Shown: piece after piece, positions 2,089-43,157 of the stretch
How the letters are laid out: each line of letters starts with the position of its first letter
Numbering within the stretch: position 1 is the first letter of the stretch
Assembly: GCA_000004695.1 (NCBI GenBank)
Contig: CM000150.2
Span: 800,001 to 864,000, forward strand
DNA length: 64,000 nucleotides
Reading direction: 5' to 3'
From: Dictyostelium discoideum
Lineage: Eukaryota
Notes under the pieces: model-generated
The model's database searches: none
What the model was told of the DNA's origin: nothing
Seen by the model: the letters and a program-made list of their open reading frames with translations, nothing else
Translations under genes and position numbers: made by a program

Positions 2089-3443
2089 ATGGAGAATAGT
2101 GAAGATATTTCATTGAATTCTTCTGAAAAATCGATAGAATCTAGTGTTGTTAATTTAGAGGATCAACAACAATCCCAACAACAAACCCAACAACAAACAT
2201 GTCAAAAAACATTTGTTCAAGAAGCACCAGAATTAACAATACTAATTGATAAATTAATTCAACTTAAACATTCAAATAAAGATGAATTAATAAGTAATAC
2301 TACTAGAATAATCTATATAATTGATCAATATTTAGAACAACCAACATTATTAGATATTCATTTAAACGATATAATTCAACCATTAATAAATTTCATAAAA
2401 TCAAATTATATAAATAACTCTAATAATAATAATACAACAACAACAACAACAACAATAATGACTGAAACAGAAATAGTAATAAAGAAATTATCAATTAAAA
2501 ATTCATTTAGAATTATATATGTCCTATCAAAAGTTAGAGGATTTAAAACAATAGTTAAATTATTTCAACACGAAGCAATTGATCTATTACCAGTATTAGA
2601 TCAATTAGAGATCTCTTATCACCAATGGGTTAATATTAATAAACAAAGAGATAGATTAAATGAAATTTCAGTTTCATATTCAAGTGGTATAAATTTAAAA
2701 AACTATATCAAACCAGAAGAAGAATCAGAACAAGAAGTAGTAGATGAAAATAATAATAATATTAATAATAATCATAATATTGATGATGAATATAATGAAA
2801 ATATTATATCATGGGAAGAAGTTTATGTGTTAGCATTATGGGTTTCATTATTAGTTATAATTCCATTTAAATTTAGTTCATTAGATTCTGCAAGTAGTGG
2901 TACTGCTTCTGCTGCTGGTGATGGTGGTGATGGTGATGGTGATGGTCAATTAAAAAGTATATCATCAAGAATTTTAAAATTAGGTAAATTAGCATTAAGT
3001 GATGTTTCAAAGATTAGAGATTCTTTCTCTGAATTATTATCAAAACTTTTAAATAGACCTGATATGAAATTTGAACAAAAACAATTTATAAAATGGTGTA
3101 CAAATTCAATTCAATTAATTAGTAATAATAATAATAATAATAATCAAAATAATAGTAGTAATAATAATATATTATTAATTATTGGTATATATAGTACATT
3201 AGCAACAATGTTTAAAAAAGGTAATAGATTAGACTTTTTACCAATTGATATGAATTTATATGAAAAGATAATGGAAGCAAATAAATATTTATCATTATCA
3301 GGTTCAGAACGTATTACAAAGAAAATATTTTTAAAATTATTACAAAGAATTGCAATCATTATGTTACCACCAGTATCTGCTTCTTGGAGATATCAAAAAA
3401 TAATTAAACCATTATTATTAAAAGGTGAATTAATAAAACAAAT

Positions 3444-3474
<31 letters not shown>

Positions 3475-6400
3475 AATAATAATGAAGAAGGAGAGGAAGA
3501 GGAAGAAGAAATACCAGAAGAAATTGATGAAATTTTAGAAGAGATTATGAAATCATTAAAAGATAAAGATACAATTATTAGATGGACTAGTGCAAAGGCA
3601 ATTGGTAGAATTGTAAATTTATTACCAAAGGATATGGGTGATCAAGTGATTGGCTTGGTTATTGATCAAATGTTTGAGAAGAATGAATTCATTGATGCAG
3701 ATCCGTCAGCATGGCATGGTGGTTGTTTGGCATTGGCAGAGTTGGCACGTAGAGGTTTACTATTGCCAGAGAGATTGGATGTAGTTGTGCCATTGGTGAT
3801 AAGAGCACTGTTTTTCGATATCATTAAAGGCACCTACAGCATTGGGTCACACGTTAGAGATAGTGCTTGCTATTTATGTTGGGCACTGGCTAGAACCTAT
3901 CATAATTCCATTCTCTCGCCATACCTATTACCAATTTGTAGAAATTTAGTCGTAGTTTCGTTATACGATCGTGAAATTAATTGTAGGAAATCTGCATCGG
4001 CTGCATTTCAAGAAATGGTTGGCAGACATCAAGGATTAGTACCTAACGGTATTGAAATTGTAACGAGTGCTGATTTCTTTACAGTTGGTAATAAAAATAA
4101 TTCATTTACAAGTTTGACCACATTCATTGGTAAATTTCAAATTGATTATTATCCAATAGTTATTAAACATTTGGCAACTATAAAAATCTATAATTGGGAT
4201 TTAGAAATCCGACAATTAGCAAGTAAATCAATTCATCTATTAACAAATATTAATCCAAATGATATCGTTAGTAATTATTTACCATTAATTATACCAAATA
4301 CACAATCTGATTTAGTTCATGTTAAACATGGTGCTTCATTAGCAATATCTGAAATTTTAATTAGTTTATTTGAAAATAATAATATTAATTTATTATCTGA
4401 TAATTTAAAAATGGTAAATATATCTATATTTAATAATTTATTATTATTATTATTTTAATTTATTAATTATATCTTTTTTTTTTTTAAAATAGATGATTTT
4501 AATGACAATTAAAAATACAAAGAATGAAAAATTATTTAAAGGTAAAGGTGGTGTTTTAATTAGAATTGGAATGTGTAAAATTATTTATTCAATTTGTTTA
4601 GTTGAATTTTCGTTAGATAAGAATTTATCAGAAATTAAAAAACCAACAGAATCAACTAGTACTAATGGTAATGAAGATAGAGCAGCAGCATTAAAATTAA
4701 AAATTGCAATGTTAAAAGCAAAAACAGCATCACAAATTAATAAACCAATTATTACACCTCCATCATCAAAATCTACAACAAATAATAATAATAATAATAA
4801 TAATAATAATTTAAATGATAATGAAATTGCATTTAATATTATACTTGGATATTTAAATGAAAATTTAAATCATCCAAATGAAGAAGTTCAAAAAGAAGCA
4901 AGTAAAGCATTTGAATTATTATTTAGTAAATATATATCATCGAATGAAAAGATATCATTATTATTAGAATTAATTGATTCACATTGTAAGACATTAAAAT
5001 TTGATATAAATAGATCAGCAAGAAGAGGTTCATCATTATTATTAGGTTCATTACCATTCAATAGTGCAAATTTATCATATGACCTTTTATCAAAGGTTGT
5101 AAATGAATTAATTCTTTCAATATTTCAAGATGACCCTAAATTTAAAGATATTGAAACTAGAGTTAATTCAATCTCTTCATTATATAAAATTGGAATTTAT
5201 ATTTTAAATTTAATATTTAAAAATCAAGAAAATGAACAAAAAGAAGAAGAAGATTTTAAAAAATCAAAAAATTATAATTTATTTATTAAAATTTGGAATT
5301 GTTTAGGATTAGCTACAAATGATTATTCAATTGATAAAAGAGGTGATATTGGTTCTTGGGTTAGAGAATTATCATGTAAAGTTTTATTTGATTTTATTAA
5401 ATTTATTATTACTAATCAAAATAGCTCAACTACCACTACTACTGCCAGTACTACTGACTTATCAATTGAAAATTTAATTAATGAAAAAATGATTACAGAA
5501 TTCATTTGTAAATTATTCCAACTTTCAGGTGAGAAATTGGATAAGATTAGAGATGTAGCTTGTAAGATAATTCATGAATTACTTTGGATTGAGAATCCAT
5601 CATCAATTAATAATATACCGCATAAGGAGGAATTAAAGAAAATCATTGTAAAGGATCAAGATGTTCATTTCAATTGGTTTAGAACAGAAGAATCTTTACC
5701 ATTAATTTGTAAAGTGCTCAAATTCAATTGTTATTTATATCCATTACTATTCGGCTTATTCTCATCATTAGGTGGTACTTCGAAATATTTAATTAACGAT
5801 TCCATTCAATCGATTAAACAATACTTTTCATCATTTGATAATGACGAAAAAGAGAGATTTGAAAAAATTATATCATTCTCAAAAGCAATATTAGAAATAA
5901 CTAATAATACAACTCAAAGAATGATACAACCAACTTTTAGATCAATTTATAATCTTTTATCAACTCATATATTTGATTTCTTAATAATTAATAATTTAAA
6001 TGAACAATCTATTTTTGAAACTATTTTATTTAATTGTTATCAAATTATTGAATCAAATCAAGATGATATTTATTTATTATTAAATTCAATTGAATTGTAA
6101 GTAGTGTTTTTAATGTTATTATTATTATTATTTGTAGTAGTAGTGGTGTGTATTCCTATATTAACACTTATTTTTTTATTATTTTTTAGATTTTCATACT
6201 TTTTCATTCAATTTGAAAATAATAATAATGAATATATTAAAGATTATTCATTAAAAGCTTTATTATTATTATTATCTAATTTAAAATATCCAAAAGTTAG
6301 AAAATTAGCATCTGATCAATTAAAGAAATCAACTAGATTATTTATCAACAATAATGGGGATGATGAAACACCATCCTTAATTAAATCATTAATATTCAAT

Positions 6401-6703
6401 ACAAAATGGGATGATTCTGTAGATTTGATTATAGAACCTTTAAAATCATTATTATTACTTTTAAATCAAAAACATTTATTAGAATTATTATCTGAAAATC
6501 CAACTAAAAAACCAATACCATTAGCTCCACCAATTACATCAATTGAAGAATTAAAAGATAAAATTCAAAATCCACATAAACAATCAGATGATAATAATAA
6601 TAATAATAATGGTGAATTAATAAATAATAATACTGAAAATAATAATAATAATAATTTTGATGATAATTTACCAGAAGATTCTCAAGATTTAATGGAAATT
6701 TAA
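2089..6703 (+). CDS. Tubulin-folding cofactor D (TBCD) homologue, 3 exons: 2089..4413, 4493..6096, 6190..6703.
   Basis: HEAT-repeat protein. The motif DTIIRWTSAKAIGRIVNLLP...DPSAWHGGCLALAELARRGLLLPERL...VRDSACYLCWALARTY matches the conserved TBCD core (WHGGCLALAELxRRGLL). Exon 1 to 2: GTAAAT donor at 4414, AG acceptor at 4491-4492, phase 0. Exon 2 to 3: GTAAGT donor at 6097, a 93-nt intron (a multiple of 3, containing an in-frame TAA), TTTTTTAG acceptor at 6189. Confidence 0.6.
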
Positions 6704-6803
6704 AAAAAAATAAAATAAAATAAAATAAATAAAAATAATTGTTTTTTTTTTTTTAATTTTTTTTATTTTATTTACATTTATTTTATTTGTTTTTTGTTTT
6801 TAT

Positions 6804-9101
6804 TTAATAACCTCTAATTTCTTTTAAAACTTTATCTTTTTCACTTGAAGAAACTTTACCATAACTTGAAAATTCCATTGAAAAAGAAGCATTACCAGAA
6901 GTGAAACTTCTCAATTGAGTTGAATAACCAATCATTTCTTTAAGTGGAACGATAGCAGAGATTATATGAGTATTCTTTTCCATACCAACATCTAAAATTG
7001 TACCTCTTCTTTGACGTGATAAATCTGATAAAACATTTCCAAGATATTTTTCATCAACAGTAATTTCAATTTTCATTAATGGTTCTAAAATGATTGGTTC
7101 GCATTGTTCACCCAATGCAATAAAATTTTTAATACTACTCATTCTAAAAGCTAATGGTGGTGAATCAGAATCTGAATTATAATCAATGGCACTTATGGTG
7201 ACTTTAGTATCAACAACTGGGAAACCCATTGGTAAACCACGTTGGAATGATGATTCTAAACCTTCGGTTATTGAAATTTTAATTTTTTCCAATGTTGATT
7301 TATCAAATGATTCTAAAAATCCCTTTTTGAAATCGAAAATGATTTCATTACCTGTACCAATTTCTTTTGGTTCAATTGACATATTAATACCAGCATGGAA
7401 TGTTTTCATACCTGTACCAGTTTGGATGTTAAATTCTGATTGATTGATTCCATCATCAGCTTCATCAAATGTTGATTGTGATGAATAAGAAATTGAGCCA
7501 CGATATTGAACTTGCATTTTACCCATTCTACTATCGACTTTAAAGTGATTATCTAAACGATCTTTTATAATCTCCAAATGAAGTTCACCCATACCACTAA
7601 TTAAAATATTTTGATCATCTGTAACTTGAAAATGGAATGATGGATCCTCTTTTTGAAGAATAGTTAATGCATCTATCAATTGTGGAATTTCACTTTCAGA
7701 ATTTGCTTCCAATGTACAAAAGAAAACTGGTGGTGGTGTTTTAATACCATTTAATATGATTTTTGGTGCCTTATCAAAGTCTCTAACTAGTGTATCACCG
7801 GTTGAAACATTCTTTAAACCAAGGATTGCACCAATATCACCAGCTTTCAATTCTTGAATATCATCCATTTCACTTGCTGATACTTGAAGTAATTTTGTTG
7901 CTCTTTCTCTTGATTTTCTTGTTGAATTATAAATGTTTGTACCAGCTTTTAATATACCAGAATAAACACGAGTATAAACTATTAAACCACGTCTTGGATC
8001 ATGTACCACTTTAAATGCCAATGCTACCAATTCACCTTTTGTATCACTTTTAATTGGTATATTGGTTTTAGGATTTGATTCATCATATGGATTTGGTAAA
8101 ATGGCTAATGGTGGTTCTCTATCGATTGGTGATGGTAAAAAATCTACAACACTATCCAATAATTGTTGAACACCTTTATTTTGTAATGATGTACCATATA
8201 AAACTGGTACTGCTTTAATTGATAATGTTACTCTTCTAATTGCTTCTTTCATTTGAGTTGGTGTAATTTTTGAATCATCACCATCATTCTCCAAGTATAA
8301 TTGTAACATATCTTCATCCAAATCTGAAAGTTTTTGAATTAATTCCGATCTTTTCTCTTTAACCAATTCAATTGTCTCTTGATCCAATAAAGTTTGATTT
8401 GATGTTGACGTTGTTAAAAGTGGTGTTTTTTCAATGATTTCACCTTTTTCACCTGACCATGAAATTAAATTCATTTCAATTAAATCTACAACAGTTGAAA
8501 ATTTTGCACCAGTGCCTAATGGCCATTGAATTGGTAAAGGATTTGCACCTAAACGATCAGTCATCATTTTTAAAGTTTTATCAATTGATGAACCTTCTCT
8601 ATCCATTTTATTGATAAATGCAATTCTTGGTACTTTATATCTTTCCGCTTGATTCCAAACTGTAATGGATTGAGCTTGAACTCCTGCAACACCATCAAAA
8701 ATTGCAACACCACCATCAATCACTCTAACTGATCTTTCAACCTCAACTGTGAAATCAACATGTCCTGGTGTATCTACAATATTAATTCTATGATCATTCC
8801 ATGGAATTGTAACTGTTGCTGCACCAATTGTAATACCTCTTTCTCTTTCTAATTTCATATAATCCATTATTGTATCTCCTTTATGAACTTCACCAATTCT
8901 TTTAATTAAACCTGAATAATATAACATTCTTTCACATGTTGTGGTTTTACCTGCATCAACATGTGCAATAATACCAATATTTCTATAATTATTTATTTGA
9001 TTTGAAACATTTTTTGTTTGATTTAAAAATGATGAATAATTTCTAATTGAATTTTGAATTAAATTTTTTCTAATTTTATTATTACATAAATTTTTTAACA
9101 T
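6804..9101 (-). CDS. Mitochondrial elongation factor G2 / ribosome-releasing factor 2 (GFM2-like)
   Basis: 765 aa. The N-terminus looks like a mitochondrial presequence. The GTPase motifs [56 protein letters not shown] and FINKMDR are present, and the N-terminal region aligns with GFM2/RRF2mt rather than EF-G1. Confidence 0.75.
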
Positions 9102-9236
9102 ATTTAATTTTTCGTTTTTTTTTTTTTAATTTAAAAAAACGAATAATTAAATGTAAAAACTAATTTTCATATTTTTTTTTTTTTTCAAAAAAATAAAATT
9201 TTTTTTTTTTTTTTTTTTTAATCACCATTTGATTTT
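9102..9236. promoter_or_regulatory. Short divergent intergenic region (~135 bp) shared by the EF-G2mt (-) and MYG1 (+) start codons; putative bidirectional promoter.
   Basis: The start codons sit at 9101 (minus) and 9237 (plus). The sequence between them is A/T homopolymer-rich. Confidence 0.4.
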
Positions 9237-9371
9237 ATGAAAAGATTTTATTCAACTTTAAAAAAAATGTCTGATTTAACAATTTGCACTCATTCAGGTA
9301 GTTTTCATGCTGATGAAGCTTTAGCTTGTTATTTATTAAAATTATTACCAACATATAAAGATTCAAGTAAG

Positions 9372-9402
<31 letters not shown>

Positions 9403-10455
9403 AACCGAACGTTTTAAGAAAACTAATTTCTAAAAATAATTTTTTTTTTTTTTTTTTATTTATTTTTAGAAATTATTAGAAGTAGAGATAAAAGTGTAAT
9501 TGAAAAATCAACAGTTGCAGTTGATGTTGGAGCAGTTTATAATTTTGAAAAATTAAGATTTGATCATCATCAATCAGGATTCACAGAAACATTTGATGAT
9601 AAACATGATATTAAATTATCAAGTGCAGGTTTAATTTATAAACATTATGGTAAAGATATCATTAAACAACGTTTAGATACAAATGATTCAATTACAGAAT
9701 TATTATATCAAAAACTTTATGATAGTATGATTCAAGAATTGGATGGTGTTGATAATGGTGTTGAAAGATATCCATCAGATATTAAACCAAGATATCAATC
9801 TGGTTCATCAATTAGTGCTAGAGTTGGCCATTTAAATCAAGGTTGGAATGAACCACAAGATGATGAAATTGTAAATAAACAATTTGAGAAAGCAATGGAA
9901 TTAATGGGTCAATACTTTTTAGATCGTTTAGATTATTATGGTAAAGTAAGTATAAATTTATATAAATAAATATAAATAAATATAAATAAAAAAATAAATA
10001 AATAAATAATAATTTTTTTTATTTTTTATTTTCTAAATTAGTCATGGTTACCATGTAGATCAATTGTTGAAAATGCTTTAGAAAATAGAAAACAAACTCA
10101 TTCATCAGGTGAAATTTTAATTTTAGATATGTTTTGTCCATGGAAAGATCATTTATTCTCATTAGAACAAGAAAAGGATATTAAAACTCCAATTAAATTT
10201 GTACTTTTTGAAGATACATCAGGTCAATGGAGAGTATCAGCAGTTGGTATCAATTTACATTCATTCACACTTCGTTTACCACTTCCAGAGGAATGGAGAG
10301 GTAAAAGAGATGAAGAATTATCTCAAATTAGTGGTATTGAAGGTTGTGTTTTTGCTCATGCAAATGGTTTCATTGGTGGTAATAAAACTAGAGAAGGTGC
10401 TTTATTAATGGCAATTAAAACTTTAAATCAATCTCCAAAAACTTTACTTGAATAA
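9237..10455 (+). CDS. MYG1 / UPF0160 family metal-dependent 3'-5' RNA exonuclease, 3 exons: 9237..9366, 9470..9945, 10042..10455.
   Basis: The N-terminus MSDLTICTHSGSFHADEALACYLLKLLP is the MYG1 signature. After splicing, VDVGAVY..FDHHQSGFTETF..SSAGLIYKHYG and VDNGVERY..ARVGHLNQGWNEP are conserved. The C-terminus CPWKDHLF..SGQWRVSAV..LPLPEEWRG..GCVFAHANGFIGGNKTREGAL matches human MYG1 almost end to end. Donors are GTAAGT at 9367 and 9946; acceptors are TTTTTAG at 9469 and AAATTAG at 10041. Confidence 0.85.
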
Positions 10456-10582
10456 ATAAAATAAAATAAAATAAAATAAAATAAAATAAAATAAAAAAAA
10501 AAAAAATAGATCTATAGTTTAATTTATTATTTTTATTTTTTATTAATTATTTATTATATAAATTACTAGTTTTGAAAATTTT

Positions 10583-11472
10583 TTAATTACTATTAATTTC
10601 TTTTAATTTTGTTTCAGTTATTTTTGTAATTGATTTTATATAATCATCAGTAATTTTTTGAATATTTTTTTCAAGGGTCTTTTCATCATCTTTTGTAAGT
10701 TTGTAACGTTTTAAAATATCCATACCATCTTTTCTGTGTCTTCTAATTGAAACTTTTGCATCTTCAGAGATTGTATTTACTTGTTTAATTAATTTTTGTC
10801 TTAAATCTTGAGTTGGTTTTGGTAATGATACTCTAATTGTTGTATCAAATGTTTGAGGATTTAATCCTAATCCAGAGTTTGTTAATGCTCTTTCTACATT
10901 ACTAAGTAACTTTATTATTATTATTATTTTTTATTATTATTAAAAACAATTATTAATTATTAATTATTAATTGTTTTTTTTAAAAATTTAGTTTTTAAAA
11001 TACATACAGAACTATCATATAATGTAATATTTAAAGTTAAAGAATCTTTAATAGTAATCATTGCCATATGTGGTAATAGTAAATTACCACTTGGAGTTTC
11101 AACATTAATACGTTCTAATAATTCTGGACCAACACGACCAAAACGAATATTACCTAATTCTCTTGAAACGTATTCTATAGTTTTATCACCTTGACTACTA
11201 ACTGAACTAATATCAACTTGTTTCCATGGTGTGAAAACTTCATCATCTTTACTATTGCTTTTACCACCACCACCACCACCACTCTTTTTAGCTCTTAATG
11301 TCATTACTGAATTTTCATTAAAAATTGAAAATGGTGATCTTCTTTGAAATGATGATGTTGTTGTGGTTTTTGCAACACTAATAATACCTCTATAAGTTTG
11401 TTGTTGTTGATTTGAATTGTTACCAATTGAACGAACAAAACATCCTGAAAATCTATTAATTCCTCTAATCAT
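10583..11472 (-). CDS. Mitochondrial ribosome recycling factor (RRF/frr family), 2 exons: 11008..11472 and 10583..10909.
   Basis: Exon 1 carries IRFGRVGPELLERINVETPSGNLLLPHMAMITIKDSLTLNITLYDSS. This aligns to the E. coli RRF stretch [52 protein letters not shown] donor at 11007 and an AG acceptor at 10910-10911 give the continuation LLSNVERALTNSGLGLNPQTFDTTIRVSLPKPTQDLRQKLIKQVNTISEDAKVSIRRHRKDGM.., which matches RRF domain II. The N-terminal extension is presequence-like. An alternative upstream ATG at 11511 would add a poly-Lys stretch. Confidence 0.75.
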
Positions 11473-11549
11473 TTTCTTTTTTTTTTTTTTTTTTTTTATT
11501 ATTTTTTTCAAATAATAAACACAAATGAAAATATAATATATCTTAAAAA

Positions 11550-11590
<41 letters not shown>

Positions 11591-11677
11591 AAAAAAGTAT
11601 AAACGAAATTTTTACGAGATATTCATTTTTCATATTTTCATTTTATTTTTATTTTTATTTTTATTTTTTATTTTTTT

Positions 11678-14600
11678 TTAATCAAATAAATTAAAATTTT
11701 TTGAATAAATTAAATTATTCAAATGATTGATAAATTCTATTGTAATGAAAGAATTTTGTGAGATTTCTTTTGATTTTATAATATAGTAATTATTATTGTA
11801 AGATCTTCCAACCCATTTTTCATCTAAATAAATATTTGTGCATTTGATTATATTATCACCATCTTCATCATGATTGTCACCATTTTGAATATTCTTTTTA
11901 ATTTCATATATCCAATTTAATATGATATCATATTGATCACTACCACCACCACCAGATAAACTATTAATATTCCATACTTTATCGATATTACACGACTTGA
12001 TTTCAACTAAAGAGGAGGAGGAGTTATTATTATTTGCAATTGTATGATGATCACAAGAAATAGTATCCAATGTAACTTCACCAATATAAACATTATATTG
12101 ATCCAATTTATCTTTTTTATTATTACCATCACTTGTAATACTGTTGTCATCCTTTGAATCTATCTTTTTATCTTGATTATTTGAATTTGGATTTGAATTT
12201 GGATTTGGTATAGAATTTCTATCAATACTATTAGATTTGAAATTATAACTAAATGATTTAATTTCTTTTAATTTTATAATATTATTATTTTTGTTGGTAT
12301 TATTAAATATGAAATCATCAATATTTAAACAAAATTTAGATTGATACCAATCTAAATGAGCATTTATAATTTCATCTTGATCAGATTCATAAATTATATA
12401 TTCATTTTGATTATTTGTTGCAGTATTAATATTGAATGGAAATATTTGTTGTTTATTATCAATACTGTTACCCAATGTACTTGGATGTAAAATGATATTC
12501 TTTATATTCTTTTCTTCATTATCACTAAATACCAATATCAAACATAGTTTACTAATTTGTTCTGATAATTGAATCTTTGGTATTGATTTTACACTCCATG
12601 TATATGATATTAATAATTGTTTTTCTTTTAATTTAATATCAGTTTTAAATAATGTTGAAATTGAATATTTATCATCATCATCATCATTATTATTATTATT
12701 ATTATTATTGATAGAATAATGTTTAAATTGATTATTACCAATATTTGAAATTGTTTCTAATTTACCCTTTATATTTAAAGAAGAACCACCATTAAATGAA
12801 ACACTATATGAAGTGGTTGATAAAATTAATTTTGAACCAATTTGATATCTATAATCTTCTTCACAACCAATAATATCTTGATCAGATAAATTGAACCATT
12901 TAGAATTTGATACGATTTTACCATTTATCCAATATTTCTTTCCTTTACCTCTATTAAAACAACTTGAAAATGGTAATGAATGAATTGAAATTCTTTCATC
13001 TGTAACTGATCTAATTGAATTATAGTTATTATTATTATTATTATCATCATCATGATCGTCATCACTATTTAATGTTGTTGTTGTTTTTTGTTGTTGTTTA
13101 GATTTATAAATTGGTTTTGCAATAATTTGTAAATTTATACCAGATATTGAAATTTCATCATTATCAGAAGTATTATTAATAATGATATCAATGAATCTAA
13201 TACCAATTGGATATTCTCTAATTGTTAATTTATATTTTTTCCATTCATTTCTAACTTTTGATAAACATTGTGTATTAAATTCTTTTAAAACCGTTAAATT
13301 TTCATCCAACATTATTAAATTAACTGGATAATTATTACTATCAGTTTGATTGATTGATGATGTTGATTTATAATAAAATTCAAATTCAATCATTGGTAAT
13401 TTATCCAATATTTCTTTTGTAAACATTAATATTCTATTATTATTATTATTATTATTATTATCATTTTTACTAATATTAAATAAATCAATTCTCTTTTTAA
13501 ATATTGAAAAGAATTTCGAATCATATCTAGATGATTTAATAGATTTAAATGATTTACCATTACCATTTAATAAACCATTATTATCAATAACCCAATGATA
13601 TCTATTATTATTATTATTATTATTATTAGTATTAGTGGTAGTATTAAAAATTGGAGACCAAGTTGAAAAATTACCATATTCAGCCGAACCATTTTCAACT
13701 AAATTTTGAACTAAACTACCTAACCAAAATGATTTCTCCCTTTCAATTACCATTTTACTTGATGAGTTTGCATCTTCATAAGTCCAAGCTGGTGCAAATA
13801 TTGCACTTGATAATTGATTTAAATCTGCTTCTTTCAAACCTATCCATGAATTAAATTTGCCACCACCAAATGTACCTCTTCCCCAACAATCTGTACCAAC
13901 ATAAACATTTTTACATTTTTCATTTATTTCTTCATCATTACAATCATCTTTATTATTATTAAGATTTGAAATTATATTGAAAGAATTTTTTAAATTATCT
14001 TTATTCCAACAATAATTTAAGAAAATCCCATCACAATTTTCAAAAAATCTATAATTCTTTTCATTTAATTCATTCTGCCAATTTAGTTCACCATTTGAAG
14101 TAACACTATCATACCAAATAATTAATGGTTTTTCATCATTATCTTCATGAATATCACCACCAACACTACCACTATCACTACTACCACCACCAATAATTAT
14201 TGAATTTTTATGAATTGAATTTGTAAAATTTTTTAAAAATGAAATATATTTTTCAACATATGATGGATGATCTAATAGTGATGTTTCTAAATTTAAAAAC
14301 CAACCATCAAATTTAAAATGATTTGAAATTTCAATTAATTTATTTATAAAGTGATTAACATCTTCTTGAATACCGTCAACCAATAAATAACAATCTGATA
14401 GGGATTGATCCCATTCCAATATGATTGTACCTAAAACTTTTACACCATTTTTATGAGCTGAATTGATCCAACCAACTGGTGGTATTGAAATTCTATGATG
14501 TGAGAAATAAATAAAAGTATCAATTAAATTCCAATGATAGAAATTATAAAATTCACTTGACCATAATGTTTTCCTATCATTAATTCCTTCATAAATACCT

Positions 14601-14728
14601 TGACAATATTTATCAATTTGGTAACCATTCATCATATCATGACAATGAATTCTTTTCGTAATATTATTTGATTTTTTAATTCTTTTATTTAATTTTATTG
14701 TTGAAATATTTATTAAATCATTATAATT

Positions 14729-14760
<32 letters not shown>

Positions 14761-15598
14761 GGTGTTGTATTTGTTGTTGTGGATTAATTGTTGATTTCCA
14801 ATTTAATAATTCTAATATTGAATTTAAAGGTTTAATAGTTGAAATAAAAGAATTACCTAATAATGATTTATTTTGAATATTTGGTGGATAGCTTGGTTGT
14901 TTTAATATTGAATTATTTTGAAATATTGTTGATAATATATCATGTCTATCATTTAAATGAATTGTTAAATCTGATAAAATCATTTCATTTGATAAATCTT
15001 TACTTCCTATAATTAATGGTGATTTAGATATATTAATTGGTGATTCATATGTTTCATTGATTGTATTATTATTTTCATTATTTAAATTACTATGATTGTT
15101 ATTCTTTTCACAATAATTTGTCTGTTTATAAATTTTACAATTTAAATAAATTTCAGTTGATATTAATTGTGTTCCACTATCATTAAAATTTAATTTAAAA
15201 ATTAAAAATTCCCAATGAAAATATTTTAATTCATCTTTACTTGTATGATAAATTGAATGAATTGAAGTTCTATTTGTTGTTGTTGAATCATTGTATAATC
15301 TTTTATCAAATGACTGATTACCAAAGAAAATACCTGTATCAATATTATTATTTTGTAATTGTGAAAATATTCTATTTACTCTATTATTATCATCTCTATT
15401 GTCATCTTCATTTGGTATCATATAAATCCAACATGAAATTGAAATTGATTTAGTACTATCAATGTGATTTTCTTCTCTATTAAATTCTTCACACATTAAT
15501 ATACTATTCCATGGTATTATAATTTCACTACCATTATTATTATTATTTTTATTATTACTTCCTAATTTGATATTATCAATTAATTTTTTTGTTTTCAT
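11678..15598 (-). CDS. Cytosolic endo-beta-N-acetylglucosaminidase (ENGase), glycoside hydrolase family 85, with large low-complexity expansions.
   Basis: The block CHDMMNGYQ..WSSEFYNFYHWNLIDTFIYFSHHRISIPPVGWINSAHKNGVKVLGTIILEW is the GH85 catalytic core. It is a single 1306-aa ORF containing poly-N/poly-Q/poly-D tracts. Confidence 0.7.
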
Positions 15599-20113: not shown

Positions 20114-20161
20114 ATGATAAAAGAAAACAATAAAAATATTAATAGCGATAATAATAATAAT

Positions 20162-20211
<50 letters not shown>

Positions 20212-21706
20212 TGTTCAAATTCCAATTTATATACAAAAAAAAATATATAAATATTTAATTATAATGGAATTAAATAAGAGTGATCATGATTCTTATGAAA
20301 TCAATTCAAAGATGATTGAAAAATTTTCACTTTTATCATGGGAATGGTTTAATTTTATTTCATCAAAAATTTATCACACTTTAATTATCAAAGATTATCA
20401 AAGACTTGAACCATTAAGAACCAAAGATAATGATAATAAATTTTTATTAAAAAAACCAGAATCTGTAAAATATTTAAAATTAGTTAACATTAGTAAATTA
20501 AATGAAGAAAAAGTGAATGAAACTATAAAATCATTGGTAAATTTAAAATGGATAACTTCAGAGCACAATAATTCAATATTTCAAAAAATTAAATTTAAAA
20601 ATATTAGAATCAATAGTATGATTCTCAGAAAATATGAAGGACAGCTTCTTGATCATTATGTTAAACGAGTTGATTTTCTTCATATTGAATCTCAAACACA
20701 AACTAAAAATATTATTGAAGCGTTTAAAACTTCAAAAATTTATGGATTCAATCTAGAGTTAAAACAAAATTACTCTCAATTTAATATTACTAAATTTCCT
20801 TGGAAAGATTTAATAGAGTGTCAAGTTCCATCTGTAAATGTACAAACAAATAAAAGTTGTGTTACTGATGTTGTTGAACAGCAACAACAACAAATGGTCA
20901 ACATTGAAAGTATAACTACTGAAAATAGATTACAATGGTGTAAAGATGTTAAATTTTGTATTTTAAATGTTAAAATGTTAAATGAATTTTTAAAATCAAC
21001 ACCAAGATTAAGAGATTTAACCATTGGTATTTGCTTTTCAAATTTAATTTATAAACTTTATAAAAGATATAGTTCAAACTATGATGAAGATGAACCAAAC
21101 GTTTTAAAACCATGTAGTTGCTCAAATTCATTTGAAAGATGTTTTACTACGGAGATTGAAAATTCAAGAGTTGTTTGTTATGATGATTTATTCTCTGTTT
21201 ATTGGGATGAAATTTGTACAATGTTAATAAATCATAAAAATTTGACAATATTAACCATTACCGATAGATGTTTCAATGATAGAAAAATAAGATATGATGG
21301 TATTGAAGATGTAATTACACCACAACTATCAACTCCTGTAATAACAACATTGGAACAAAATCAACACTTTTTCCAATCATTTGTTAATTTAATATGTTCA
21401 ACAAATAAATCAATTAAAACTTTGGTTATTAATGCATATGATTTCGTTCAATTAGATATAGTATCCATTTTAAATAACTCTAATAGTACCATAGATACCT
21501 ATCATTTCTCTTTCAATGTTTCAACTGATAAAATATACCATACTAAATCTATTGAAAAGGTTACAGAATACTTTAATAAATCACCAAATAATATAATCAA
21601 ATCTTTTAAAATTACAAATAATTCTCATACTGAATTTAACTATAATCAATCTATAAAAAGAACTTTACCAATTAAATACAATTCAATTCTTTTAAACTTT
21701 AAATAA
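20114..21706 (+). CDS. Hypothetical protein (530 aa) with a poly-Asn N-terminus. No recognisable domain.
   Basis: A single long ORF with Dictyostelium codon usage and a Cys-rich middle region (CSCSNSFERCF). It sits between the TRE3 fragment and the inverted tRNA-Ser gene. Confidence 0.45.
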
Positions 21707-33129: not shown

Positions 33130-35460
33130 TTATGTTAAATGTGTTTCAGAAATTGTAGAAGTCGTGGTTGTAGTAGTAGTAGAAGTTGTAATAGTTGAAT
33201 TTATAGCTGAATTTTGTTGTTGTGGTGGTTTACTTGTTGATTGTTTTTCAACATGTTCTAAACTCCATAATGATTTACCTAATTGTTCTTCTCTTGAAAA
33301 TGGTTGACCCATTTCTCTTAAAAAAGTTTTTGAAAGTGAAATTGCCATATCAGTTGAAAGATTTAAATGTTGAGGTTGACAAAATTGTAAGATCCATTGT
33401 GGTAATTTATTACGTTTATCTAAACGATTGTAACGTTTATCAGCAAAGATCATGATACCATAATCGGATTTACCACGAATGACTCTACCAACACATTGAG
33501 AAGCAGTTCTCATTGCATCAAAAGTTAGGAATTCATTCTCTCTAATTTGATAACGATCTCTAAGGAATTCCAAACGTGCACGTAATACCTTACTCTCGGT
33601 ATTGATGTAAGGTATGCCATAGAGAATGACGCATCTGCCATACTGATTATCGAAATCGATACCCTCAGACACCTTACCTCTTGCCACTGAAAGTAGTACG
33701 GCACCTCTACCACTGTCGCATGCTTTCTTGTAGTTTTGCAATGCCAATGCTGATTCGGCAGGATCTGAAGTTTCAACAAATATTAACTTATTGGTTAGAA
33801 TATTATTTAACAGACCCATTTCATTCCAAACCGATACGATTTGCTCCATATAGCTATAGGAAGTGAAAAAACAAATGATTCCATCGGGTACTATAGCACT
33901 GACTTCAACTAATAATGCCCCATAATTTCTAACGACAGCTGTATCACTCCTAACATCGAATTTGGTTGATATTGAAATTTGGTCACTACCTCTTGTTAAA
34001 ATACATGGACAAATACAATTTCTATTTAATGACATTGTTAAACGTTCAACAACGGTTGGACGGAAATTCAACATTTTCGTATAGATATCCAATGGTGACA
34101 AAGTACCACTTGTGATCACAACTGATCTATATTTATCGAAAATTGGTTTCATACCAATCGAAGCATCCAAACAACAAAATTGAAATATCTGATCATATGT
34201 ATTATTCTGACGTTGATAGTAAGGCTCAATGATGATTAAAAATCCGTTATTATAAGTACCAACCAATGTTGCAAAATCAGCGATTAATGATATACCAGAG
34301 AATTGATTCACATCATTGATTCTCAATGTTCTAAGCAATGAACTTAATCTTGATGAACAGAATCGTAAAGTTCTCGAAGAGATTTGGGTGGCATGGTAGA
34401 GTCCCTGTAGGAACGCCAATGGTGATTCACTTAGTAGCATTTGTGATTTTAATCTACTTTTTAAATAATCTACAACTCTTCTCAATAGTGATATGAAATG
34501 CTCGGCTTTTCTAATATTGCCTGGCACAGCCTCTTGAATTACATCGTTTGGTAAAACTGGGTCAGAAGTTGTTTCATCAGCTCTTGTTGAACCACTTCTT
34601 GCCAAACCATTAACTAATCTTTGATATTCATCTTTTAATCTCTTTTCATCAACTTTTTTAATATCTTCAATTTGTTTATTAATTTTCGCTATATTCTTTG
34701 AACTCGTATCCAACAGTTTATTATCAATATTGATTGATAGGGCATTGATACAAACATTGTCAATATTATGAGCTTCATCGAAAACCACAATCGAGTTACT
34801 CGGAAACGATGATGATATCAATGAGGCGATCTTTGGGTCTAAAAGATACTGATAACTAAATATAACAATATTTGCAAAATTCAACATATGTCTTGATAAA
34901 AAGTATGGACACATTTGATGTTTTAATCCATACTCTTTTAGATCTTCCAATGAATACACCCCTTCTAGTAGGATTTCCTTTCCGTTAGATTCAAAATTCT
35001 CGAAAAATTTACATTTTTCACTCGTGGGTGACTCCCTATTCCATGAGGATGTCAACTCTCTACAGAGGGCATCGACCACTTTACCATCCCTCTCTTCCGA
35101 TACCCTTGGTTGAATACAAAGGTTACGACGTGACGACATTGACATACATAACGTTTTAGGTGACTCTTCCCCCATTTCTGAATTCCTATATTGTAATACC
35201 CTTCTAGCCTCTTCTGTAGCTTGTTCAATCTCTGGCACTGTTCTTGAACAATAAATTAATTTAATTGATGGATTTTTAACTTGATATGATGAAATTAACG
35301 ATAGCAATGATACCGTCTTACCAGTACCACTTGGCATCTCTAATATACATGGTCCACCATTATCTAATGATCTCTTTAATGCTACCATATAACTATACTG
35401 TTCTGGATAAATATATGAATATGGAAAATATACTAAAAGATCTTCAATATAAAATTTCAT
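33130..35460 (-). CDS. repD: TFIIH helicase XPD/ERCC2 (DNA repair helicase repD)
   Basis: The N-terminus reads MKFYIEDLLVYFPYSYIYPEQYSYMVALKRSLDNGGPCILEMPSGTGKTVSLLSLI. It carries the Rad3/XPD motifs, including the Walker A box GTGKT, the DEAH box VVFDEAHNIDNV, the Fe-S cluster Cys region, and a C-terminal helicase domain. At 776 aa it is collinear with human XPD. Confidence 0.9.
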   Translation of the reverse strand: MKFYIEDLLVYFPYSYIYPEQYSYMVALKRSLDNGGPCILEMPSGTGKTVSLLSLISSYQVKNPSIKLIYCSRTVPEIEQATEEARRVLQYRNSEMGEESPKTLCMSMSSRRNLCIQPRVSEERDGKVVDALCRELTSSWNRESPTSEKCKFFENFESNGKEILLEGVYSLEDLKEYGLKHQMCPYFLSRHMLNFANIVIFSYQYLLDPKIASLISSSFPSNSIVVFDEAHNIDNVCINALSINIDNKLLDTSSKNIAKINKQIEDIKKVDEKRLKDEYQRLVNGLARSGSTRADETTSDPVLPNDVIQEAVPGNIRKAEHFISLLRRVVDYLKSRLKSQMLLSESPLAFLQGLYHATQISSRTLRFCSSRLSSLLRTLRINDVNQFSGISLIADFATLVGTYNNGFLIIIEPYYQRQNNTYDQIFQFCCLDASIGMKPIFDKYRSVVITSGTLSPLDIYTKMLNFRPTVVERLTMSLNRNCICPCILTRGSDQISISTKFDVRSDTAVVRNYGALLVEVSAIVPDGIICFFTSYSYMEQIVSVWNEMGLLNNILTNKLIFVETSDPAESALALQNYKKACDSGRGAVLLSVARGKVSEGIDFDNQYGRCVILYGIPYINTESKVLRARLEFLRDRYQIRENEFLTFDAMRTASQCVGRVIRGKSDYGIMIFADKRYNRLDKRNKLPQWILQFCQPQHLNLSTDMAISLSKTFLREMGQPFSREEQLGKSLWSLEHVEKQSTSKPPQQQNSAINSTITTSTTTTTTTSTISETHLT

Positions 35461-35919: not shown

Positions 35920-36792
35920 ATGAATTTTTTCGATAAACTTAAAGGTGAACTCAACTTAGGCGAAGAAGAGTTAAATAAAAAAACTATTCAAATAAGGTTA
36001 TTCTACCCACATACCTTGGAATTAAATAGTAATTCATCAAAATTAATAGATAATTTCATAGTTAATGGTACTCTTAACATTGTCAGAAGACAAAAGGTTA
36101 TAACAGTATTTGGTAGAATACTAAAAGAAAAATTCACAATATTACACGAGTGTTACAGCACTTTCAAGTATGAAGATTTCCCACTGCAAAAATTCATACT
36201 TTACACCCCAGGATATCACTATGTCCACTTTTACACATTTACAAAAAACATAATAAAAAAAATAAACAATCAAATGGTAAAAGAAAACTGGGGATTGGAG
36301 CCATTACTAATAGATGAATACAACATAGTAATGCTACCAGATGTGATTAGATATTCATGCATTCTATTATTTAATAAAGAAGATGATATCTCAATCATCA
36401 AAACAAACATTGATGCTATAAAAGGTAGTAAGCATCCAATAAGAGCCTTCATCTCAGAATATAACAATAAAGAAATAAGAGATGTTAGAAAAAAAAAAAA
36501 CACAAGTAATAAAAATCAACAACCAACAACTACAAATACAACTAAATCAATACCATCAACTCCACCAACAACTAATGCATTAACAACCACACCAATAACA
36601 ACCACACCAATAACAACCACACAAACAACAACCACACCAACAACAACCACACATCAATTACCAACAAGCAATACAACAATCAACAACCTAAACAAAACTA
36701 CTACTACTACTACTACTACTACAAAACCTATCAATAAAATTACTACAAGCAATGGTACCAAGTTTCCAATTGCCAGTAGTATTAGAAAATAA
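35920..36792 (+). CDS. TRE3 #1 ORF1 (gag-like nucleic-acid-binding protein)
   Basis: 290 aa with a Thr/Pro-rich C-terminus. Its stop codon overlaps the ORF2 ATG (TAATGG). Confidence 0.7.
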   Translation: MNFFDKLKGELNLGEEELNKKTIQIRLFYPHTLELNSNSSKLIDNFIVNGTLNIVRRQKVITVFGRILKEKFTILHECYSTFKYEDFPLQKFILYTPGYHYVHFYTFTKNIIKKINNQMVKENWGLEPLLIDEYNIVMLPDVIRYSCILLFNKEDDISIIKTNIDAIKGSKHPIRAFISEYNNKEIRDVRKKKNTSNKNQQPTTTNTTKSIPSTPPTTNALTTTPITTTPITTTQTTTTPTTTTHQLPTSNTTINNLNKTTTTTTTTTKPINKITTSNGTKFPIASSIRK

Positions 36793-42655: not shown

Positions 42656-42694
<39 letters not shown>

Positions 42695-43157
42695 AGTAGT
42701 TGGTGTTATATGAGCAGTATGGTATGAAGTGTTCCGGGATTTTTATGGTCATGAGTTTCGAGTTCCAGTTGTGGCTGAATTTTTCGAGTCTTCTTTTTAT
42801 TGATGCGGTCCGATTGATTGACTCTCGGTTATCAGTGCATCTTAGTTCTTGACGTAGTTGTTTTTCTACTATCTTTCTTGTTCTATCCCATTCGGCATCT
42901 CTCGCTTTTTTTATTTTATGAATTATTTGGTTCTCTGTTATTATTGTAGTGTTATCGTTGAATTTTATTTGATTTCTTCTGTACCATATCGATTCCATAA
43001 TGGCTCCTATCAGATTTGATGAGAATGGTGTGAGTAGTTTTCCGAGAACTTTTTCGCTCCATGGACCGTGGTAAGTGTTGTTGGAGTCTTTACAGACCTT
43101 TTGATAGATTGAGTCGATATTCTGTTTTATTGATTTGCATTCGAAGAAGATGTGCAT
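41786..43157 (-). mobile_element. Minus-strand non-LTR retrotransposon remnants lying 58 bp upstream of tRNA-Pro #2, in a TRE5-like (5'-of-tRNA) position and in head-to-head orientation. They comprise an ORF2 C-terminal fragment (42690..43157) plus 3'-terminal sequence.
   Basis: The minus ORF ..HIFFECKSIKQNIDSIYQKVCKD..WYRRNQIKFND.. carries the HxxxC Cys/His motif typical of the ORF2 C-terminus in L1-like elements. Compare HLFTLCQ and HLFFNCQ in the two TRE3 ORF2s. A 28-bp terminal motif, gataacNcaattattatttgcttctcc, occurs twice at 41786 and 42351, each abutting an A-run on the minus strand. This suggests two tandem 3' termini. Confidence 0.45.
42690..43157 (-). pseudogene. Truncated retroelement ORF2 C-terminal fragment (Cys/His region)
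   Basis: See the parent element. There is no N-terminal endonuclease or reverse-transcriptase portion, and the fragment is in frame only from 43157 downward. Confidence 0.5.

What the first reader, a model, noticed from the sequence alone, without database searches (positions are those of the whole stretch)
6804..11472. Three mitochondrial translation and RNA-processing genes in a row, two sharing a ~135-bp divergent promoter
EF-G2mt/RRF2mt (6804..9101, minus) and mitochondrial RRF (10583..11472, minus) are the two factors that together split post-termination mitochondrial ribosomes. The MYG1 gene (9237..10455, plus) sits between them. MYG1 family proteins are 3'-5' RNA exonucleases that act on mitochondrial and nucleolar RNAs. 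EF-G2mt and MYG1 are divergently transcribed with their ATGs only 135 bp apart. MYG1 and RRF are convergent with 127 bp between their stop codons. In a eukaryote, such tight functional clustering is uncommon. It points to co-regulation through a bidirectional promoter, or to operon-like inheritance of a mitochondrial ribosome-recycling module.
Basis: partly seen in the sequence, partly recalled or inferred. Interest (0 to 1): 0.65.

Follow-up and report, generated by a model that had tools for sequence, protein, structure and literature searches.

The report
Three adjacent mitochondrial gene-expression genes, Dictyostelium
Three correctly identified and already annotated Dictyostelium nuclear genes for mitochondrial translation and RNA processing (gfm2, a MYG1 homologue, mitochondrial RRF) lie about 130 bp apart, but related species show a stepwise, unstable juxtaposition rather than an inherited recycling module; only the RRF–MYG1 pair is anciently conserved.

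Summary
The window is D. discoideum AX4 chr1:800001-864000. It holds gfm2 (6804..9101, minus), a MYG1 homologue (DDB_G0267768, 9237/9267..10455, plus, two introns) and mitochondrial RRF (DDB_G0268518, 10583..11472, minus, one intron). The spacers are 135 bp (ATG to ATG) and 127 bp (stop to stop).

- The strands alternate, so this is not an operon.
- gfm2 and RRF, the two recycling partners, are linked only in the D. discoideum complex. They are unlinked in seven other dictyostelids.
- Their expression is not specifically correlated (r=0.31 and 0.64).
- The gfm2<>MYG1 head-to-head pair, with tbcD behind gfm2, also exists in P. violaceum but is broken in D. purpureum. Its co-expression is moderate (r=0.79 and 0.88, 94th-97th percentile) and is matched by unlinked growth-phase genes.

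The one unexpected result is that RRF and MYG1 are adjacent in dictyostelid groups 1, 3 and 4, although published work reports no synteny between groups. In my sample, 0 of 10 other adjacencies survive at that depth.

Best reading: a compact-genome neighbourhood assembled stepwise, with back-to-back promoters and tightly packed 3' ends. Interest is low to moderate.

The parts
2089..6703 (+). tbcD (tubulin-folding cofactor D), convergent neighbour of gfm2. It travels with gfm2 in group 4 and P. violaceum and serves as an internal control pair with no functional link.
   Evidence: Sucgang Table S2 coordinates 802089-806703; ORFs; TBCD Pfam domains on the orthologues next to EF-G2 in L008 and L009; tblastn.
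6804..9101 (-). gfm2: mitochondrial EF-G2 / ribosome-releasing factor 2, single exon, 765 aa. The 40-aa N-terminal extension has 7 K+R and no D/E.
9102..9236 (.). Divergent spacer of 135 bp, about 10% GC, made of homopolymer T/A runs. On the + strand a TATA-like AAATAAAAT followed by T21 lies just upstream of the MYG1 ATG. The back-to-back core promoters are inferred.
   Evidence: No motif or inverted repeat exceeds chance.
9237..9366 (+). MYG1 homologue (DDB_G0267768), exon 1. The first ATG at 9237 adds MKRFYSTLKK. The annotated start is the second ATG at 9267.
9470..9945 (+). MYG1 exon 2, which contains the DHH motif (RFDHHQ). The preceding intron is 9367..9469.
10042..10455 (+). MYG1 exon 3, ending in stop codon TAA at 10453-10455. 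The preceding intron is 9946..10041.
10456..10582 (.). Convergent spacer of 127 bp with (ATAAA)n poly(A)-signal-like repeats on both strands. The 3' ends of MYG1 and RRF must abut or overlap (inferred).
   Evidence: The equivalent spacers are 36 bp in T. lacteum and 68 bp in C. fasciculata.
10583..10909 (-). Mitochondrial RRF (DDB_G0268518), exon 2. The intron is 10910..11007.
11008..11472 (-). Mitochondrial RRF exon 1. It includes an N-terminal extension of about 90 aa, and the first 52 aa have 7 K+R and no D/E.
11678..15598 (-). DDB_G0268520, a 1306-aa gene in tandem upstream of RRF with a 205-bp gap. It is not conserved next to RRF outside the D. discoideum complex, and its expression is anti-correlated or uncorrelated with the cluster.

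Best explanation
This is an ordinary, very compact stretch of D. discoideum chromosome 1. Three independently transcribed nuclear genes for mitochondrial gene-expression proteins have ended up side by side through stepwise rearrangement.

Shown:
- gfm2 (EF-G2mt), a MYG1-family exonuclease gene and mitochondrial RRF lie on alternating strands with 135-bp and 127-bp spacers.
- RRF><MYG1 is an old pair, present in dictyostelid groups 1, 3 and 4.
- The tbcD><gfm2 pair was placed head-to-head with MYG1 later. That arrangement is shared by P. violaceum and the D. discoideum complex.
- Each junction has been broken again in other lineages: RRF-MYG1 in group 2 and P. violaceum, and gfm2-MYG1 in D. purpureum, where MYG1 is also inverted.
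- All three mRNAs are abundant in growing cells and fall at least 4-fold within 1 h of starvation. So do many unlinked genes. RRF alone peaks again late in development.

Inferred:
- gfm2 and MYG1 start from back-to-back core promoters inside the AT-rich spacer and belong to the same growth-phase regulon. That gives moderate co-expression without a dedicated shared element.
- MYG1 and RRF have abutting or overlapping 3' ends. Spacers this short (36-165 bp) leave almost no room for harmless breakpoints, which largely explains why that pair persists.
- The juxtaposition of the two recycling partners is a recent, lineage-restricted coincidence. At most it is weakly favoured by sitting in a common expression neighbourhood.
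For: - Gene models, spacers and families.
- Synteny. The triple is present in D. dimigraforme. Locus tags imply it in D. citrinum and other D. discoideum strains.
- D. purpureum has RRF->MYG1 in tandem on one scaffold and MIX23-like<>gfm2><tbcD on another. The published blocks 1290 and 2777 show the same split independently.
- P. violaceum has tbcD><gfm2<>MYG1><Fes1, with RRF elsewhere.
- T. lacteum and C. fasciculata have RRF><MYG1, with gfm2 on other scaffolds among unrelated neighbours.
- H. album and A. subglobosum have all three genes separate.
- S. polycarpum has RRF as gene 9230 and EF-G2 as gene 8365.
- Balamuthia MYG1 stands alone.
- Base rates. 63% of D. discoideum/D. purpureum orthologues lie in perfectly conserved blocks averaging 2.8 genes (PMC3188802). 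84% of the genome is syntenic with D. firmibasis (PMC11014262). Short intergenic distance predicts gene-order conservation, and Dictyostelium spacers are among the shortest (PMC2871058).
- Expression (Rosengarten 2015 supplements). gfm2-MYG1 r=0.79 and 0.88. Unlinked genes such as DDB_G0267822, DDB_G0267824 and DDB_G0267794 correlate as well or better. gfm2-RRF r=0.31 and 0.64. 22 of 58 background genes also drop at least 3-fold at 1 h.
- No spacer motif exceeds chance.
Against: - RRF-MYG1 adjacency survives in three of the four major groups, although 'synteny was not observed' between groups (PMC5097433).
- In my sample, 0 of 10 other adjacency tests at that depth are conserved, against 2 of 4 for RRF-MYG1 (Fisher one-sided p about 0.07; small and non-independent sample).
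- In D. purpureum the pair stays adjacent even after MYG1 was inverted and the spacer grew to 329 bp. A pure 'no room for breakpoints' argument does not predict this.
- gfm2-MYG1 correlation is consistently in the top 3-7% of background pairs in two independent series.
- Three mitochondrial gene-expression genes in a row is improbable under a narrow category (expected about 0.02-0.1 genome-wide; my arithmetic).
- An unidentified EukProt dictyostelid has consecutive gene numbers for MYG1 and EF-G2, so that junction may be older than inferred here.
Confidence: 0.62

Rival explanations
1. Selected co-regulation through a true bidirectional promoter. The 135-165 bp gfm2<>MYG1 spacer would hold shared regulatory elements that couple mitochondrial ribosome recycling to an RNA exonuclease acting in nucleolus and mitochondria, and selection would keep the head-to-head pair together. 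This would parallel human GFM2<>NSA2.
For: - The head-to-head arrangement, with tbcD behind gfm2, is conserved between the D. discoideum complex and P. violaceum.
- Co-expression is r=0.79 (94th percentile) and r=0.88 (97th percentile) in two series.
- The spacer is the shortest divergent gap in the window.
- In vertebrates GFM2 shares its 5' region with the ribosome-biogenesis gene NSA2, and the two are co-regulated. That arrangement has been conserved for about 400 My (PMC11476648).
Against: - The pair is broken in D. purpureum. It is absent in T. lacteum, C. fasciculata, H. album and A. subglobosum.
- RPKM differs 5-10 fold between the two genes.
- Unlinked growth-phase genes correlate as well or better. 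Without the 0-h point, r falls to 0.65 (82nd percentile).
- The spacer sequence is not alignable beyond the flanks between D. discoideum and D. dimigraforme. It is 470-534 bp and compositionally different in P. violaceum.
- No motif exceeds chance.
Confidence: 0.22
2. Functional coupling of RRF and MYG1. The ancient RRF-MYG1 neighbourhood would be kept because the two products act together, for example 3'-end trimming or surveillance of mitochondrial mRNA or rRNA linked to mitoribosome recycling. Alternatively, their convergent overlapping transcripts would regulate each other.
For: - They are adjacent in C. fasciculata (group 1), T. lacteum (group 3) and D. purpureum, D. dimigraforme and D. 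discoideum (group 4). Nothing else within +/-10 kb is shared between groups.
- Adjacency survives an inversion of MYG1 in D. purpureum.
- MYG1-RRF r=0.83 (94th percentile) in the suspension series.
Against: - The pair is separated in group 2 (H. album, A. subglobosum) and in P. violaceum with no sign of gene loss.
- Balamuthia MYG1 has no RRF within 10 kb.
- MYG1-RRF r=0.25 (55th percentile) in the filter series, because RRF has its own late peak.
- Very short convergent spacers alone can explain persistence (PMC2871058).
- No physical or genetic interaction between MYG1 and RRF is known to me.
Confidence: 0.13
3. Operon-like or module inheritance. The three genes would have been inherited or moved as a unit encoding a mitochondrial ribosome-recycling module.
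For: The two recycling partners are 1.5 kb apart with a mitochondrial RNA enzyme between them. The triple is intact in the D. discoideum complex.
Against: - The alternating strands (-,+,-) exclude co-transcription.
- The cluster was assembled in two steps and has been broken in several lineages. gfm2 and RRF are unlinked in seven other dictyostelids.
- gfm2-RRF co-expression is near background.
- The metagenome scan found no MYG1 locus with RRF or EF-G in its flanks.
Confidence: 0.03

Closest known systems
Human and sarcopterygian GFM2<>NSA2 head-to-head pair (PMC11476648)
   Same: The same gene, GFM2/EF-G2mt, sits head-to-head with a gene tied to nucleolar ribosome biogenesis and RNA processing. 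The two share a short 5' region, are co-expressed, and the arrangement is conserved within one clade but not beyond. The shared non-coding sequence itself is poorly conserved.
   Different: The partner gene differs (NSA2 versus MYG1), so the arrangements arose independently. The Dictyostelium spacer is 135-165 bp of low-complexity AT sequence, with no transcription-factor site identified and no reporter data. It was lost in D. purpureum.
Conserved divergent or adjacent co-regulated gene pairs in eukaryotes (Davila Lopez et al. 2010, PMC2871058; Arnone et al. 2012, cited in PMC11476648)
   Same: These are short-spacer neighbouring genes with related functions (ribosome, mitochondrial chaperonins HSP60/HSP10 and others). 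Their adjacency outlasts the surrounding synteny, and spacer length predicts conservation.
   Different: The most deeply conserved pair here (RRF><MYG1) is convergent, not divergent, so a shared promoter cannot be the constraint. The functional link between the two products is only thematic.
Bacterial operons or eukaryotic polycistronic clusters for translation factors (for example bacterial frr neighbourhoods)
   Same: Translation-related genes lie physically together.
   Different: There is no co-transcription, because strands alternate and each gene has its own start and poly(A)-like signals. The genes are nuclear, contain introns and carry presequence-like N-termini. The cluster is not inherited as a unit.
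Published D. discoideum / D. purpureum micro-synteny blocks (Sucgang et al. 2011, PMC3188802)
   Same: The region is already tabulated as block 1290 (tbcD, gfm2) and block 2777 (DDB_G0267768, DDB_G0268518). It behaves like the typical 2-3 gene conserved block.
   Different: That study did not look beyond group 4. The persistence of block 2777 into groups 1 and 3 is not reported there.

Membership tests
EF-G2mt / RRF2mt (GFM2 orthologue) | Five-domain EF-G architecture (G domain, II, III, IV, V) | tested here: met
   Pfam GTP_EFTU, EF-G_D2/GTP_EFTU_D2, EFG_III, EFG_IV and EFG_C are all above cut-off.
EF-G2mt / RRF2mt (GFM2 orthologue) | Closer to EF-G2mt than to EF-G1mt or cytosolic EF-2 | tested here: met
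   503/500 bits against human RRF2mt, 378 against human EF-G1mt and at most 235 against EF-2. The nearest non-dictyostelid eukaryotic hits are named 'Ribosome-releasing factor 2, mitochondrial'. dictyBase calls the gene gfm2. No explicit tree was built.
EF-G2mt / RRF2mt (GFM2 orthologue) | Mitochondrial targeting presequence | tested here: inconclusive
   A 40-aa N-terminal extension precedes the G domain, with 7 K+R and no D/E (first acidic residue at position 49). No targeting predictor was available.
EF-G2mt / RRF2mt (GFM2 orthologue) | Ribosome-splitting activity with mtRRF and no translocation activity | not testable with these tools
   This is a biochemical property, inferred by orthology only.
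Mitochondrial ribosome recycling factor (MRRF) | RRF domain over its full length | tested here: met
   Pfam RRF at 156 bits, profile positions 2-163 of 164. It matches bacterial, chloroplast and human mitochondrial RRF structures.
Mitochondrial ribosome recycling factor (MRRF) | N-terminal organellar extension relative to bacterial RRF | tested here: met
   About 90 extra N-terminal residues. The first 52 have 7 K+R and no D/E. Localisation itself was not tested.
MYG1 / UPF0160 3'-5' exonuclease family | Full-length MYG1_exonuc domain with DHH-type metal-binding motifs | tested here: met
   Pfam at 453 bits over 318/318 positions. 329 bits against solved 'MYG1 exonuclease' structures. The motifs HSGSFHADE and DHH are present in the translation.
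MYG1 / UPF0160 3'-5' exonuclease family | Dual nucleolar and mitochondrial localisation | tested here: inconclusive
   Two in-frame ATGs are separated by a short basic extension. The architecture is conserved in six species. This is consistent with two isoforms, but localisation has not been measured in Dictyostelium.
Bidirectional (shared) promoter pair | Head-to-head orientation with under 1 kb between starts | tested here: met
   135 bp between ATGs, or 165 bp to the annotated ATG.
Bidirectional (shared) promoter pair | Co-expression above background | tested here: inconclusive
   r=0.79 and 0.88, at the 94th-97th percentile, but equalled by unlinked growth-phase genes and largely driven by the 0-h point.
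Bidirectional (shared) promoter pair | Evolutionary conservation of the arrangement | tested here: inconclusive
   Present in the D. discoideum complex and P. violaceum. Absent in D. purpureum and in groups 1-3.
Bidirectional (shared) promoter pair | Shared cis-element required by both genes | tested here: inconclusive
   No motif or palindrome exceeds chance. Reporter dissection is needed.
Operon / co-transcribed module | Same-strand genes transcribed as one unit | tested here: not met
   The strands are -, +, -. Each gene has its own start and its own AATAAA-like 3' signals.
Operon / co-transcribed module | Inheritance of the gene set as a unit across species | tested here: not met
   The triple is found only in the D. 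discoideum complex, and its components are unlinked elsewhere.

The most novel reading that the evidence does not exclude
The RRF-MYG1 neighbourhood has been kept for the whole history of Dictyostelia (groups 1, 3 and 4), against a background in which inter-group synteny is otherwise not seen, and it is kept even after an in-place inversion of MYG1. The most novel reading is that this reflects a real functional or regulatory coupling. MYG1 would be a so far unrecognised player in the termination and recycling phase of mitochondrial translation, for example 3'-end trimming of mt-mRNA or rRNA coordinated with ribosome splitting. The later recruitment of gfm2 next to the pair in the Dictyostelium/Polysphondylium lineage would then be selected rather than accidental.
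Probability: 0.12. Interest if true: 0.6.

Novelty: new member of a known kind. Interest (0 to 1): 0.3.

Why it matters
If the neighbourhood is only a compact-genome coincidence, it shows that functional 'themes' among adjacent eukaryotic genes need comparative testing before being read as modules.

If the RRF-MYG1 linkage is selected, it gives a cheap, testable lead to MYG1's still poorly defined mitochondrial role, linking it to ribosome recycling. It would also add a second, independent case, after vertebrate GFM2<>NSA2, in which GFM2 is wired head-to-head to a nucleolar RNA-processing gene. That would hint at recurrent selection to couple cytosolic ribosome biogenesis with mitochondrial translation.

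The conserved two-ATG architecture also suggests that the dictyBase MYG1 model omits a short presequence-bearing isoform.

Tried and rejected
1. I looked for a shared cis-element in the 135-bp spacer. TTTTCGTTTT occurs once against 1.16 expected. The 34-nt inverted repeat at 9088-9121/9133-9166 is one of 45 such pairs in 191 bp of low-complexity sequence. Both were rejected as evidence.

2. I scanned 6000-12500 for hidden RNA genes. There were no Rfam hits at E<=0.1 and no tRNAs in the region.

3. I scanned JGI metagenome contigs with MYG1 to find further amoebozoan neighbourhoods. It returned only 5 loci, none with RRF or EF-G in the flanks.

4. I tried to read Heidel et al. 2011 for a quantitative inter-group synteny rate. 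The paper is not held, so I relied on secondary statements.

5. The Parikh 2010 expression supplements are not held, so I used Rosengarten 2015 instead.

6. I tried to identify the species behind EukProt gene4015 and gene4016. No accession is recorded.

7. I considered whether the EF-G could be EF-G1mt or cytosolic EF-2, and rejected both on bit scores and nearest named relatives.

8. I considered whether tbcD><gfm2 is as deeply conserved as RRF><MYG1, as a control. It is not; it is absent in T. lacteum and C. fasciculata.

Full report
**Source and anatomy**

- Exact-sequence look-up places the window in Dictyostelium discoideum AX4 chromosome 1.
- Sucgang et al. 2011 Table S2 gives tbcD 802089-806703, gfm2 806804-809101, DDB_G0267768 809267-810455, DDB_G0268518 810583-811472 and DDB_G0268520 811678-815598. 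Window coordinate therefore equals chr1 coordinate minus 800000.
- I rebuilt the three gene models from sequence.
  - gfm2 is a single 765-codon ORF at 6804..9101 on the minus strand.
  - The MYG1 homologue is 9237..9366, 9470..9945 and 10042..10455 on the plus strand. Its two GTAAGT...AG introns are 4-11% GC.
  - RRF is 11472..11008 and 10909..10583 on the minus strand, with one GTATGT...AG intron.
- The database model of MYG1 starts at the second in-frame ATG (9267), which would make the divergent spacer 165 bp.

**Identities**

- Pfam finds all EF-G domains in the first protein. It finds a full-length MYG1_exonuc domain (453 bits) in the second and an RRF domain (156 bits) in the third.
- Against solved structures, the EF-G scores 503/500 bits with human 'Ribosome-releasing factor 2, mitochondrial', 378 bits with human EF-G1mt and at most 235 bits with EF-2.
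- Its closest non-dictyostelid eukaryotic relatives carry the RRF2mt name.
- The human homologues of the first and third proteins occur together in ribosome entries 7L20 and 7NSH, in line with their known partnership in splitting post-termination mitoribosomes.
- MYG1 matches solved 'MYG1 exonuclease' chains at 329 bits.
- Grover et al. 2019 describe MYG1 as a 3'-5' RNA exonuclease of the nucleolus and mitochondrial matrix. It trims mito-ribosomal and messenger RNAs (PMC6582341).
- gfm2 and RRF have N-terminal extensions of 40 and about 90 residues. These are rich in K/R and free of acidic residues for 48 and 52 residues respectively.

**Is the spacing unusual?**

- Not for this genome. tbcD and gfm2 converge with only 100 bp between them. 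Other divergent gaps in the window are roughly 257, 459 and 1240 bp.
- Published mean intergenic space is about 700 bp (PMC5295588). Dictyostelium is singled out as having very short intergenic distances (PMC2871058).
- The 135-bp spacer is about 10% GC and made of T and A runs.
- On the MYG1 side there is a TATA-like AAATAAAAT followed by T21 just before the ATG. I read this as an ordinary Dictyostelium core promoter (inference).
- A candidate motif, TTTTCGTTTT, and the inverted repeats in the spacer do not exceed chance.
- No RNA family or tRNA lies in the region.

**Comparative test**

I used RRF, EF-G2 and MYG1 orthologues, fetched their neighbourhoods and checked them by tblastn.

| Species (group) | Arrangement |
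|---|---|
| D. dimigraforme (D. discoideum complex) | tbcD><gfm2<>MYG1><RRF, as in the window. Consecutive locus tags imply the same in D. citrinum and other D. discoideum strains. |
| D. purpureum (group 4) | RRF and MYG1 adjacent but in tandem, with MYG1 inverted and a 329-bp gap. gfm2 lies on another scaffold between a MIX23-like gene and tbcD. |
| P. violaceum | tbcD><gfm2<>MYG1, then Fes1. RRF is on another contig. |
| T. lacteum (group 3) | RRF><MYG1 convergent, 36 bp apart. gfm2 is on a different scaffold with unrelated neighbours. |
| C. fasciculata (group 1) | RRF><MYG1 convergent, 68 bp apart. gfm2 is on a different scaffold with unrelated neighbours. |
| H. album, A. subglobosum (group 2) | RRF converges on a UCH gene. 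MYG1 and gfm2 are on other scaffolds. |
| Synstelium polycarpum | RRF is gene 9230 and EF-G2 is gene 8365. |
| Balamuthia | MYG1 has neither partner within 10 kb. |

- The D. purpureum split matches published blocks 1290 and 2777.
- A metagenome scan added nothing.

**History**

- The most parsimonious reading is a two-step assembly.
  - RRF><MYG1 was already present in the dictyostelid ancestor.
  - tbcD><gfm2 was joined head-to-head to MYG1 in the ancestor of P. violaceum plus group 4.
- Erosion followed. RRF left in P. violaceum, gfm2 left and MYG1 flipped in D. purpureum, and RRF and MYG1 parted in group 2.
- One caveat: two EukProt proteins from an unidentified, distinct dictyostelid have consecutive gene numbers (MYG1 gene4015, EF-G2 gene4016). 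The gfm2-MYG1 junction may therefore be older or recurrent.

**Base rates**

- Within group 4, conserved adjacency is commonplace. 63% of orthologues lie in perfectly conserved blocks averaging 2.8 genes, and 84% of the genome is syntenic with D. firmibasis.
- The triple in the D. discoideum complex and the pairs in D. purpureum therefore carry little weight.
- Between groups, 'synteny was not observed' (PMC5097433) or was 'low'.
- In my own sample, the other three adjacencies of this region (tbcD-gfm2, gfm2-MYG1, RRF-DDB_G0268520) are conserved in 0 of 10 tests against group 1-3 species. RRF-MYG1 is conserved in 2 of 4.
- Nothing else within +/-10 kb is shared between C. fasciculata and T. 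lacteum.
- The sample is small and not independent (Fisher one-sided p about 0.07, my arithmetic). It still marks RRF-MYG1, not gfm2-RRF, as the unusual adjacency.

**Expression**

- Rosengarten et al. 2015 supplements give counts for all three genes.
- I identified DDB_G0267766 as gfm2 from the RPKM-to-count ratio, which implies a length of about 2303 nt.
- All three transcripts are highest in growing cells and fall at least 4-fold within an hour of starvation. So do 22 of 58 background genes.

| Pair | Filter series r (percentile) | Suspension series r (percentile) |
|---|---|---|
| gfm2-MYG1 | 0.79 (94th) | 0.88 (97th) |
| MYG1-RRF | 0.25 (55th) | 0.83 (94th) |
| gfm2-RRF | 0.31 (59th) | 0.64 (83rd) |

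- Percentiles are relative to the background pairs in each series.
- Unlinked genes match or beat these values. MYG1 reaches r=0.92 with DDB_G0267824, and gfm2 reaches r=0.92 with DDB_G0267794.
- RRF alone rises again at 14-18 h on filters.
- RPKM differs 5-10 fold between gfm2 and MYG1.
- The data fit membership of a general growth-phase regulon. Neighbour-specific coupling of gfm2 and MYG1 is at best modest, and there is no specific coupling of the two recycling partners.

**Verdict**

- 'Operon-like inheritance of a recycling module' is not supported. The strands alternate, the gfm2-RRF link is young and lineage-restricted, and their expression is not specifically correlated.
- A compact bidirectional promoter region for gfm2 and MYG1 is physically unavoidable and moderately supported. 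It has a close published analogue in vertebrate GFM2<>NSA2 (PMC11476648).
- It is not shown to contain shared elements, and the arrangement was dispensable in D. purpureum.
- The unexpected result is the deep conservation of RRF next to MYG1.
  - Very short convergent spacers (36-165 bp) offer a sufficient neutral explanation (PMC2871058).
  - Persistence through an inversion in D. purpureum keeps a functional reading alive at low probability.
- Neither DDB_G0268518 nor DDB_G0267768 appears in the main text of any paper in the library. This instance therefore seems undescribed, though it belongs to a well-known kind of phenomenon.

Noticed in passing
window 9237-9269; L007 ~12240-12270; L009 ~9937-10003; proteins P0182, P0185, P0189: MYG1 has a conserved two-ATG architecture. 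An upstream in-frame ATG adds a short basic, mostly acid-free extension: MKRFYSTLKK in D. discoideum, MKRFFTVVKK in D. dimigraforme, an unannotated MFYLKRSIQSTYFQGLRSFTS in P. violaceum, and longer ones in T. lacteum and Balamuthia. A second Met follows, right before the conserved TICTHSG core. The dictyBase model starts at the second ATG. This suggests a long mitochondrial isoform and a short nuclear or cytosolic isoform made by alternative initiation.
   Followed up: partly
proteins P0180 (gene4015-5018_t) and P0069 (gene4016-5019_t), EukProt: MYG1 and EF-G2 from an unidentified dictyostelid carry consecutive gene numbers. Its sequences are only 60-72% identical to all sampled species. The numbering hints at another lineage with the gfm2-MYG1 adjacency. 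No contig or species accession is recorded, so this could not be verified.
   Followed up: partly
window 35755-35825 and 43216-43286: Two tRNA-Pro(UGG) genes each sit inside a short divergent spacer between protein-coding ORFs: 33130..35460(-) <> 35920..36792(+), and 42690..43157(-) <> 43415..44623(+).
   Followed up: no
window 18727-18808(+), 22333-22414(-), 18920-18993(+): Two tRNA-Ser(UGA) genes form an inverted pair flanking the ORF at 20114..21706, and a tRNA-Cys lies beside the first copy. A single D. dimigraforme segment (L007 1767-1988) matches both copies, so this may be an inverted duplication in D. discoideum.
   Followed up: no
L008 8995-9455; L010 19026-19487; L006 10638-10830; L011 2462-4176: Other mitochondria- or ribosome-related genes lie near these genes in other species. 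A MIX23-like gene (faint Pfam hit) is head-to-head with gfm2 in D. purpureum. A bacterial-type Ribosomal_L17 gene lies 7 kb from MYG1 in Balamuthia. A Ribosomal_S19 fragment converges on RRF in P. violaceum. A Ribosomal_S14 domain is fused in a gene model near gfm2 in T. lacteum. It is unclear whether this is more than chance.
   Followed up: no
window 10583-11472 (DDB_G0268518): RRF mRNA, unlike gfm2 and MYG1, rises again at 14-18 h of filter development and at 10-12 h in cAMP-pulsed suspension. This points to a separate late-developmental control of mitochondrial ribosome recycling factor.
   Followed up: partly
window 11473-11677: The 205-bp gap between the stop of DDB_G0268520 and the RRF ATG is about 8-14% GC and contains a long uninterrupted A run of roughly 50 nt. 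RRF's promoter must fit in this gap or lie inside the upstream gene.
   Followed up: no
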